Below, one piece after another: positions 50,353 through 51,065 of a stretch of 64,000 bases of DNA (the first letter of the stretch is position 1; every line of letters starts with the position of its first letter). Origin of the DNA: Escherichia coli. GTDB taxonomy: Bacteria > Pseudomonadota > Gammaproteobacteria > Enterobacterales > Enterobacteriaceae. The stretch is from NCBI RefSeq assembly GCF_003334405.1, contig NZ_QOWM01000002.1. The stretch is one strand, 5' to 3'. The translations under genes and the position numbers were made by a program. The notes under the pieces were generated by a model. That model saw only the letters and a list, made by a program, of their open reading frames with translations. It was not told the origin of the DNA and did not search any database.

Positions 50353-50827
50353 GGTAACCCTTTCCGGTCAGCAGATAACGCGACTGACAGAATTACCCCC
50401 GGCATATAACCTGCAGCGCAGTGCGCAGTTGCTGCAGCAACTGATGGTACTTTTCCCCGACAATCCCCGTGTTCAGGAAATGGTGGATAACTGGCAGAAG
50501 AGCGTAAGGAGTCGTGCGCTCCCGGAAGAGGCGATGACGGGCTGGAATGAAGGCATGACCCGCTTACAGCAGCTGGCTGAACGCCTGAACCGTCTGGATG
50601 AACAGCGGGGAAAATACATGACGGTCAGTGAACTGAAAACGGAGGTGTTTGGCATCATGCAGGCTTTTAACTGGCATATCCCGGCGGAAGAGCAGTTACG
50701 TCGCTATGATGAAGCCCGTAACCAGAATGGCAGTGAACAGCAGCAAAAACAGGCTGAAATGGCACTGAATCAGCTGATTAATCGTTATCAGGTGGAACAC
50801 GCTGGCAAACCGGAGAGGCAGCCATGA
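50353..50827 (+). other. Unidentified CDS fragment, open from the Ag43 junction with no credible start
   Basis: Open frame ...TLSGQQITRLTELPPAYNLQRSAQLLQQLMVLFPDN... ends at 50827. It begins inside the junction, so it is most likely the 3' remnant of a deleted island gene. Confidence 0.4.
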
Positions 50828-51065
50828 TGGCTGATAAAACATGGTAATGGAAAATAAACCCAAAAGAATGCGCACACCATGGGCAATCGAAGATATTCGC
50901 TACCTTGAAACGCATTATGGCGTGAAAAAAAACGCGAAATAGCGGCATATTGCCATGGGAGGGGATATGTCTGTCAGGCTGACTTGTTTTTCTCTTAAAT
51001 AGCCTTTATTTAAATTAGCCTTGGTATGAAATTAGAATCTATTAATTTTTATCAAAGGAGATTGT

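What the first reader, a model, noticed from the sequence alone, without database searches (positions are those of the whole stretch)
50353..50941. Unidentified gene remnant and a small ORF at the Ag43 junction
An open frame on the + strand (...QQITRLTELPPAYNLQRSAQLLQQLMVLFPDN... to 50827) begins inside the junction with no credible start. It is followed by a 31-codon ORF (50846-50941, MENKPKRMRTPWAIEDIRYLETHYGVKKNAK). Both look like 3' or 5' remnants of island genes I cannot assign.
Basis: seen in the sequence. Interest (0 to 1): 0.3.

Follow-up and report, generated by a model that had tools for sequence, protein, structure and literature searches.

The report
Two gene scars beside Ag43
The two segments are dead remnants, the last third of a type VI secretion accessory gene (tagA/vasL) and the first 110 bases of a small putative DNA-binding gene, left by deletions in a pheV island; they are ordinary, except that the tagA break point is reused by several independent deletions in other E. 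coli.

Summary
Window 50352-50827 (+) is the 3' end (codons 298/299-454 of 454) of a TagA/VasL-class type VI secretion accessory gene. It keeps the whole VasL domain (Pfam PF12486, E=6e-38) but lacks the ImpA_N domain, the membrane segment, a start codon and a promoter. An intact 454-codon copy in E. coli A14 is 100% identical from 50352 to 51070.

The small ORF (true limits 50841/50847-50942) is the first ~36 codons of a 210-aa gene that RefSeq calls SANT/Myb-like. It is frameshifted in an A-run and cut at ~50950, a scar shared by about 240 complete genomes.

The left junction joins an inverted internal Ag43 fragment (49005-50356) to tagA through a 5-bp microhomology (GGGTA). The glcE|Ag43 junction has GGATT. 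Neither junction occurs in 5,426 complete E. coli genomes. To the right lie QatABCD, a CBASS pair, a P4-type integrase and pheV.

The feature is known and non-functional.

Unexpected: the same tagA nucleotide (GG[A/G]TA|ACCC) ends at least four, probably six, independent deletions with different left partners (Ag43, cdiB codons 116 and 13, tssC codons 43 and 38). The mechanism is unresolved.

The parts
48196..49009 (+). glcE truncated after about codon 271. It marks the left border of the rearranged region.
   Evidence: 100% identity to K-12 glcE up to 49009, then divergence.
49005..50356 (-). Internal fragment of the Ag43 (flu/agn43) autotransporter gene, about codons 398-847 of 1039, cut at both ends.
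   Evidence: 98.5% identity over 1,352 bases to K-12 agn43. Native Ag43 continues ...GGGTA|CCACTG, whereas the window continues ...GGGTA|ACCC.
49005..49009 (.). GGATT microhomology at the glcE|Ag43 junction.
   Evidence: The glcE and Ag43 alignments overlap by 5 bases. The junction is absent from 5,426 complete genomes.
50352..50356 (.). GGGTA microhomology at the Ag43|tagA junction. It sits on the recurrent tagA break point (tagA nt 890-894).
   Evidence: Ag43 homology runs to 50356 and tagA homology starts at 50352. The junction is absent from 5,426 complete genomes. The same site is used by other junction types.
50352..50827 (+). 3' remnant of a tagA/vasL-class T6SS accessory gene (codons 298/299-454 plus stop). 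The VasL domain is complete. ImpA_N, the membrane segment and the start codon are missing.
   Evidence: Pfam VasL PF12486, E=6.3e-38, model positions 2-144 of 147. 100% identical to the 3' end of the intact 454-codon ORF of strain A14. That ORF has ImpA_N at residues 8-109 and VasL at 302-443.
50841..50949 (+). 5' remnant (about 36 of 210 codons) of a gene annotated as SANT/Myb-like DNA-binding. A 1-nt indel at the A-run (about 50925-50933) shifts the frame to the TAG at 50940-50942. Homology ends at about 50949/50950.
   Evidence: 24 of 33 residues identical to the N-terminus of WP_032234106.1 of LH13-b. The DNA alignment shows the 1-nt gap and the end of homology. The same 110-base remnant is in about 240 genomes, and a near full-length gene in 21.
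50950..52196 (+). Flank and first gene of the cargo that replaced the rest of the SANT/Myb-like gene: a 376-aa ORF of unknown function with an (AEV)n repeat.
   Evidence: Identical flank in A14 and the CFT073 type. Only a weak PADLOC hit, PD-Lambda-4_B, E=3.7e-6.
52328..56887 (+). QatA, QatB, QatC and QatD anti-phage system (context only).
   Evidence: PADLOC QatA E=0, QatB 1e-129, QatC 1e-138, QatD 6e-97. The same genes are annotated in CFT073.
57440..59351 (-). CBASS pair: oligonucleotide cyclase and 2TM effector (context only).
   Evidence: PADLOC Cyclase E=9e-177 and 2TM effector E=2e-82.
61081..62616 (-). P4-type integrase and tRNA-Phe (pheV), the anchor of the island.
   Evidence: NCBIfam integrase domain PRK09692, E=7e-75. 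ARAGORN finds tRNA-Phe at 62541-62616.

Best explanation
The region holds two non-functional gene scars at the inner edge of a shrunken pheV island.

Shown: segment 1 is the last 156 codons of a TagA/VasL-class T6SS accessory gene (ImpA_N, membrane segment, VasL). Segment 2 is the first ~36 codons of a 210-aa gene annotated as SANT/Myb-like, frameshifted and then cut.

Inferred history: the ancestral island ran pheV - int - defence cargo - SANT/Myb-like gene - tagA - (T6SS-1 cluster and other modules) - Ag43 - yee genes - island end - yghD...glcF - glcE. An older event, shared by about 240 genomes, replaced most of the SANT/Myb-like gene with the Qat-bearing cargo. In this strain two further deletions followed, each sealed at a 5-bp microhomology. 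One removed everything between tagA codon 298 and Ag43 codon ~398 (GGGTA). The other removed everything between Ag43 codon ~847 and glcE codon ~271 (GGATT).

The tagA remnant has no start codon, ribosome-binding site or promoter, and the window holds no T6SS, so it most likely does nothing. It persists because it is young. It also forms the conserved left flank of a region where defence cargo varies between strains.
For: - Identity of segment 1: Pfam VasL E=6e-38. It is 100% identical over 50352-51070 to A14, where the ORF is intact at 454 codons and has ImpA_N plus VasL and a TssA-like N-terminus.
- T6SS link: the intact gene sits after tssF/G/J/E in MLI114 and about 10 kb from tssBC in L027. 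The architecture matches the published TagA class (PMC6745524).
- Identity of segment 2.
- No expression signals: and the sequence read.
- Junction anatomy and microhomologies.
- Both junctions are unique among 5,426 genomes.
- Ag43 on the minus strand is the orientation expected for a flu module read outward from pheV. GI-pheV islands with T6SS, flu and yee modules and their remnants are described in PMC11537424.
- Variation inside the CFT073-type remnants is one synonymous, one missense and one nonsense change, so there is no sign of constraint.
Against: - The VasL-domain frame stays open for 149-153 codons in nearly all broken copies. This could hint at retained use, although the copies are too similar to one another to test.
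- The ancestral gene order between tagA and Ag43 in this lineage is inferred, not observed.
- The tagA break point is reused in other lineages, so 'random microhomology deletion' is probably incomplete as a description of how the junction formed.
Confidence: 0.88

Rival explanations
1. The Ag43|tagA junction is not a random microhomology deletion. It is the product of a site-preferring process: DNA breaks recurrently at the short palindrome GGGT-A-ACCC in tagA (codons 297-299). The right-hand end is kept almost intact, the left-hand side is lost to a variable distance, and the ends are sealed by microhomology-mediated end joining at a GGNT(A/G) match. The agent could be a nuclease, a transposase acting with the IS-excision enhancer, or a replication obstacle. 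This rival concerns the origin of the junction only and is compatible with the remnants being dead.
For: Six junction types share the same right end |ACCCTTTCC:
- Ag43 in the window.
- cdiB codon 116: CFT073; about 185 genomes by subtracting the listed single-piece matches from the 190.
- tssC codon 43 in UTI89, NU14, ST131 and 536 (196 genomes at 80% coverage).
- cdiB codon 13 in 5 complete genomes and 2 metagenome contigs, on two different tagA alleles.
- tssC codon 38 in at least 3 short-read assemblies.
- A neighbouring hypothetical gene in 1 assembly.

Further points:
- Almost every non-continuous copy in complete genomes is broken at this site; only a few listed hits start further in.
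- No copy keeps only the left side. The counts of extra places are the same for a right-only query and a spanning query, 32 versus 31.
- An identical GTGGATAAC 133 bases downstream is never used.
- Four of the types derive from the rare A14-like allele, which alone has the perfect palindrome GGGT-A-ACCC.
Against: - No IS or other insertion is found at the site in any genome or contig examined.
- The site is not a good pseudo-end of IS2.
- No significant hairpin is predicted (z = -0.2 and -0.3).
- No reciprocal junction was found, so integration at secondary attachment sites is unsupported.
- The crossover point cannot be a single phosphodiester bond in all types: GGAT|A in one and GGCTG| in another.
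- Two types rest only on short-read assemblies.
- Some types may be sequential derivatives of others rather than fully independent (cdiB13|tagA72 giving cdiB13|tagA299).
Confidence: 0.4
2. The VasL-domain frame is still a working gene. A free-standing VasL-domain protein would be made from an internal start (TTG 50429 or ATG 50444), with a role unrelated to a T6SS, for example linked to the neighbouring defence cargo.
For: - The whole Pfam domain is retained.
- The frame is open in nearly all broken copies.
- RefSeq annotates 170-184-aa 'VasL domain-containing proteins' as intact CDSs in some genomes.
- Short VasL-only proteins are also listed from Enterobacter.
Against: - There is no Shine-Dalgarno sequence before either candidate start and no promoter-like site upstream.
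- An internal start would remove the first 26-31 residues of the domain.
- The RefSeq '174-aa CDSs' are pieces of an intact 454-codon ORF.
- RefSeq marks the CFT073-type copy as a pseudogene.
- One copy carries a nonsense mutation.
- The 3' end of the remnant is cut at four different places in different lineages, at query positions 400, 411, 478 and 594.
Confidence: 0.06
3. The glcE|Ag43|tagA arrangement is an assembly chimera rather than a real chromosome structure.
For: Neither junction is present in any of 5,426 complete E. coli genomes. Ag43 is a multi-copy repeat-rich gene, of a kind that often breaks assemblies.
Against: The joins share only 5 bases, too few for an assembler to merge contigs on. 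Both flanks are collinear with the expected order glc - island end - flu - ... - tagA - cargo - int - pheV. The Ag43|tagA join has the same form as junctions in finished genomes.
Confidence: 0.03

Closest known systems
[quoted passage not shown]
   Same: The intact homologue (A14, 454 aa) has ImpA_N at 8-109 and VasL at 302-443, with a hydrophobic stretch between them (sequence). It lies at the end of a T6SS-1 cluster.
   Different: The window keeps only the VasL-domain third, with no start codon and no T6SS genes nearby. Sequence identity to the experimentally studied EAEC TagA was not measured.
RefSeq pseudogene 'VasL domain-containing protein' (for example C_RS21335 of CFT073 and A9P12_RS04685 of strain 219)
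   Same: The same DNA at 99.4% identity, starting at the same nucleotide, followed by the same SANT/Myb-like scar, hypothetical gene and QatABCD.
   Different: The left partner is the first 116 codons of a cdiB gene in those genomes and an inverted Ag43 fragment here. The chromosomal site is also different: beside the grp operon in CFT073, at pheV here.
SANT/Myb-like DNA-binding domain-containing protein WP_032234106.1 (E. coli LH13-b)
   Same: The first 30 codons of the window ORF align with its N-terminus, 24 of 33 residues identical, in the same position directly after tagA.
   Different: The window copy is frameshifted and cut after about 110 bases. The SANT/Myb label itself is weakly supported: the best Pfam hit is Myb_DNA-binding at E=0.033, and there is no NCBIfam hit.
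One-sided deletions formed during IS excision promoted by the IS-excision enhancer, sealed by microhomology (PMC9943667)
   Same: One fixed end, a variable other end up to tens of kilobases away, and short and sometimes imperfect microhomology at the join.
   Different: No IS is or was demonstrably present at the tagA site.

Membership tests
TagA / VasL-class TssA-like T6SS accessory protein | C-terminal VasL domain (PF12486) | tested here: met
   E=6.3e-38, model positions 2-144 of 147, in the window remnant.
TagA / VasL-class TssA-like T6SS accessory protein | N-terminal ImpA_N domain (PF06812) | tested here: not met
   Absent from the window, where homology starts at codon 298. Present in the intact A14 homologue at E=5.5e-17. 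The window therefore holds a fragment of a member, not a member.
TagA / VasL-class TssA-like T6SS accessory protein | Hydrophobic membrane segment between the two domains | tested here: not met
   The hydrophobic stretch FVTGVCVALLAVSVAIPGW of the A14 protein lies upstream of the break and is missing from the window. It was identified by eye; no transmembrane predictor was run.
TagA / VasL-class TssA-like T6SS accessory protein | Location in or next to a T6SS gene cluster | tested here: not met
   No T6SS genes were seen among the ORFs read between 46 and 64 kb of the window. Homologues lie beside tssF/G/J/E and tssB/C.
TagA / VasL-class TssA-like T6SS accessory protein | Binds TssA and holds the extended sheath at the membrane | not testable with these tools
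   This is an experimental property reported for E. coli TagA (PMC6745524).
SANT/Myb-like DNA-binding protein | Myb/SANT helix-turn-helix repeats detectable by profile | tested here: inconclusive
   The full-length LH13-b protein gives only Myb_DNA-binding at E=0.033 and no NCBIfam hit. Four W-x-x-E-E-like repeats are visible by eye. The window keeps only the first.
Pseudogene / gene remnant | Truncated relative to an intact homologue, with no start or with a disrupted frame | tested here: met
   tagA: 156 of 454 codons and no start. SANT/Myb-like gene: about 36 of 210 codons with a frameshift.
Site-specific recombination (attachment) site | Reciprocal junction carrying the other halves of both partners | tested here: not met
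   The continuations of Ag43, cdiB and tssC were not found in the window or in the matching loci.
IS-mediated or IEE-mediated adjacent deletion | An IS present at the fixed end in some relative | tested here: not met
   No IS-split or left-only copy in 5,426 genomes or in 62 metagenome loci. IS2 end similarity was rejected.

The most novel reading that the evidence does not exclude
tagA codons 297-299 (GG[A/G]TA|ACCC, a perfect 4+1+4 palindrome in the A14-like allele) are a true sequence-determined, one-sided deletion hot spot. Through it E. coli repeatedly sheds its T6SS-1 cluster and neighbouring modules while keeping the adjacent defence cargo. That would imply a still unidentified site-preferring nuclease, transposase or replication block coupled to microhomology end joining. 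A second fixed end at cdiB codon 13 may belong to the same process.
Probability: 0.3. Interest if true: 0.55.

Novelty: already known. Interest (0 to 1): 0.25.

Why it matters
For the finding itself, little. It assigns two unannotated scraps to known genes. It also shows that this strain's pheV island is a reduced defence island (Qat plus CBASS) that has lost its T6SS module, most of Ag43 and the chromosomal genes from glcF to yghD.

The by-product could matter more. If deletions that remove T6SS-1 from uropathogenic lineages (CFT073, UTI89, ST131, 536) and from this strain all end at one nucleotide for a mechanistic reason, it would expose a specific route of island decay. It would also give a convenient natural system for studying illegitimate recombination in E. 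coli.

Tried and rejected
- Always-fragmentary family. The protein search returned only VasL-only proteins of 265 aa or less, which suggested this. It was rejected when the A14 locus translated as one intact 454-codon ORF and about 27 of 72 loci proved intact.
- '132-bp POTRA fragment' upstream of VasL in RefSeq annotation. Rejected: that stretch is the membrane-segment part of tagA itself.
- Hairpin at the break site. DNA folding gave z = -0.2 and -0.3.
- IS2 pseudo-end at TGGAT. The site is not among the best matches to either IS2 end.
- Integration of a mobile unit at secondary attachment sites. No reciprocal junctions were found, and I saw no similarity to the pheV 3' end (compared by eye with the tRNA-Phe sequence from memory, no tool).
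- IS inserted at the site. There are no split or left-only copies.
- Chi site next to the break. None is visible in the sequence.
- Selection test on the remnant. Too few polymorphisms.
- Scan of one genome per species. Only one hit, an E. coli-like contig inside a 'Collinsella' MAG, with the continuous allele.
- Type-6 junction in complete genomes. Not found; only the type-3 junction aligned, with a gap.

Full report
**What is in the sequence.** Window 49800-51500 was read directly and ORFs were listed. On the + strand one frame is open from 50318 to the TGA at 50825-50827. It reads ...PSLRVTLSGQQITRLTELPPAYNL.... The first possible starts are TTG 50429 and ATG 50444. Neither is preceded by a Shine-Dalgarno sequence, and the promoter scan finds nothing upstream of the frame. 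The small ORF is real but sits at 50847-50942, not 50846-50941. An in-frame ATG at 50841 gives MVMENKP....

**Identity of segment 1.**
- A nucleotide search of 5,426 complete E. coli genomes found homologous DNA in 886. All matches start at window 50352 (or 50351). RefSeq annotates it as 'VasL domain-containing protein'.
- Pfam gives VasL (PF12486) at E=6.3e-38, covering model positions 2-144 of 147.
- Strain A14 is 100% identical to the window from 50352 to 51070.
- RefSeq splits the A14 locus into three partial features. Translation shows one uninterrupted ORF of 454 codons at L001 7112-8476. It has ImpA_N at residues 8-109 and VasL at 302-443, a TssA-like N-terminus and a hydrophobic stretch between the domains.
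- This is the architecture of the TagA class of TssA-like proteins (PMC6745524).
- The gene follows tssF/G/J/E in strain MLI114 and lies about 10 kb from tssB/tssC in metagenome contig L027.
- About 27 of the 72 loci examined keep an intact gene.
- The window retains codons 298/299-454, which is the complete VasL domain and nothing else.

**Identity of segment 2.**
- In strain LH13-b the gene after tagA is a 210-aa 'SANT/Myb-like DNA-binding domain-containing protein'.
- The window ORF aligns with its first 30 codons, 24 of 33 residues identical.
- The DNA alignment shows a 1-nt gap at the A-run near 50925-50933. This shifts the frame to the TAG at 50940-50942. All homology ends at about 50949/50950.
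- Of 269 genomes with any match to that gene, 21 hold at least 80% of it and about 240 hold just this 110-base stub, which RefSeq leaves unannotated.
- The SANT/Myb label is weak: the best Pfam hit is E=0.033 and there is no NCBIfam hit.

**Junctions and context.**
- The minus-strand sequence 49005-50356 is an internal piece of Ag43, about codons 398-847, 98.5% identical to K-12 agn43.
- Ag43 homology runs to 50356 and tagA homology starts at 50352, so the join carries the microhomology GGGTA. Native Ag43 continues with CCACTG.
- glcE is identical to K-12 up to 49009 and Ag43 starts at 49005, so that join carries GGATT.
- Neither join is present in any of the 5,426 genomes.
- To the right lie a 376-aa ORF of unknown function, QatABCD and a CBASS cyclase/2TM pair. 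Then come IS66 and IS4 transposase fragments, a P4-type integrase, pheV and a 235-aa ORF at 62722-63429 in the position where A14 has yqgA (no family hit).
- The orientation of Ag43 is the one expected for a flu module read outward from pheV. GI-pheV islands with T6SS, flu and yee modules and their remnants are documented (PMC11537424).
- The simplest history is two microhomology-sealed deletions in an island that once carried tagA, and probably a T6SS-1 cluster. They came after an older event, shared by about 240 genomes, that replaced most of the SANT/Myb-like gene with the Qat-bearing cargo.
- CFT073 carries the same right-hand module (tagA remnant, stub, hypothetical gene, QatABCD, the 2TM effector annotated there as a SLATT-domain protein, cyclase) at another chromosomal site.

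**Function.** I found no evidence that either scar works. There is no start, ribosome-binding site or promoter. There is no T6SS in the window. RefSeq marks the CFT073-type copy as a pseudogene. The 3' end of the tagA remnant is cut at four different positions in different lineages. The few polymorphisms inside the CFT073-type copies include a nonsense change. The frame is open in nearly all copies, but they are too similar to one another for a selection test.

**The unexpected part: a reused break point.** Aligning the left flanks showed that unrelated sequences abut the same tagA nucleotide. The native site reads GTGG(A/G)TA|ACCCTTTCC. The left partners found at this site are:

| Left partner | Join | Where seen |
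|---|---|---|
| Ag43 (minus strand) | CTCCGGGTA\| | the window |
| cdiB codon 116 | CATGGTTA\| | CFT073, strain 219, DS566-2; about 185 genomes by subtraction |
| tssC codon 43 | ACTGGATA\| | UTI89, NU14, ST131, 536; 196 genomes at 80% coverage; deletes about 10 kb of T6SS |
| cdiB codon 13 | GCGGAT\|A | 5 complete genomes and 2 metagenome contigs, on two tagA alleles |
| tssC codon 38 | CCCGGTA\| | at least 3 short-read assemblies; gives an in-frame TssC-TagA fusion |
| neighbouring hypothetical gene | GGCTG\| | 1 short-read assembly |

- Near misses lie at +8, -24 and -48.
- In complete genomes 475 copies are continuous. Almost all of the roughly 390 others are broken at this site.
- No copy keeps only the left side. 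The number of extra matches per genome is the same for a right-only query and a spanning query, 32 versus 31.
- tagA has four GGNTA sites. An identical GTGGATAAC lies 133 bases downstream and is never used.
- By my own arithmetic, if right ends fell evenly over 1,365 bases, five further events within 2 bases of the first would have probability near 1e-14. Even restricted to the four GGNTA sites it would be about 1e-3.
- Four of the types derive from the rare A14-like allele. Only that allele has the perfect palindrome GGGT-A-ACCC.
- cdiB codon 13 behaves as a fixed left end joined to four different right partners.

**Mechanisms tested for the hot spot.** None was confirmed.
- No significant hairpin.
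- No resemblance to IS2 ends.
- No IS at the site anywhere.
- No reciprocal junctions.
- No Chi site visible in the sequence.
- The pattern (one fixed end, a variable far end, short imperfect microhomology) resembles the one-sided deletions reported during IEE-promoted IS excision (PMC9943667). That remains an analogy only.

**Verdict.** The finding is real and its interpretation is correct. The feature is ordinary and already annotated in many genomes. The reused break point is recorded as an unexplained observation worth a population-scale check.

Noticed in passing
window 50352-50357; L001 8001-8006; L002, L004, L008, L014, L046, L076-L078: The tagA nucleotide where the window's deletion ends (GG[A/G]TA|ACCC) is the right end of at least four, probably six, independent deletions with different left partners. 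No copy keeps only the left side.
   Followed up: partly
L001 7112-8476 (also L003, L007): RefSeq/PGAP annotates an intact 454-codon tagA ORF as three separate partial features: ImpA_N pseudogene, 'hypothetical' or 'POTRA' pseudogene, and a 174-aa VasL CDS. The large protein database returned no full-length member either.
   Followed up: yes
L002 7672, L006 4199, L021, L023, L014: The first 13 codons of a cdiB gene (...CAGGCNGCGGAT|) form a fixed left end joined to four different right partners: an IS transposase fragment, an unknown sequence, tagA codon 72 and tagA codon 299.
   Followed up: partly
L076 4001-4300 (also L077, L078): An in-frame fusion of TssC codons 1-38 to TagA codon 299 onward, followed about 190 bases later by a truncated integrase. 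It was seen in several short-read assemblies but in no complete genome.
   Followed up: partly
window 48196-49009: glcE is cut at about codon 271. The genes that follow it in K-12 (from glcF on) are not in the window, so the glycolate oxidase locus is probably disrupted in this strain.
   Followed up: no
window 51066-52196: A 376-aa ORF of unknown function sits in front of QatA and contains an (AEV)n repeat near 52050-52100. Its length differs between strains (376, 430 and 508 aa). It has only a weak PADLOC hit (PD-Lambda-4_B, E=3.7e-6).
   Followed up: partly
window 52328-59351: A compact defence island: QatABCD followed by a CBASS cyclase plus 2TM effector on the opposite strand. The same block occurs in CFT073 at a different chromosomal site.
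   Followed up: partly
window 59486-60667: Fragments of IS66-family and IS4-family transposases lie between the CBASS pair and the integrase.
   Followed up: no
L079 (JAIJJM010000548.1): A 2.2-kb contig of a MAG labelled Collinsella sp. carries E. coli tagA (the continuous allele). It is most likely E. coli contamination of the bin.
   Followed up: no
L007 4450-7675; L006 4627-6372: A GIY-YIG nuclease gene and a 582-aa '3'-5' exonuclease' gene sit between the T6SS core genes and tagA. Their role, and any link to the nearby break point, is unknown.
   Followed up: no
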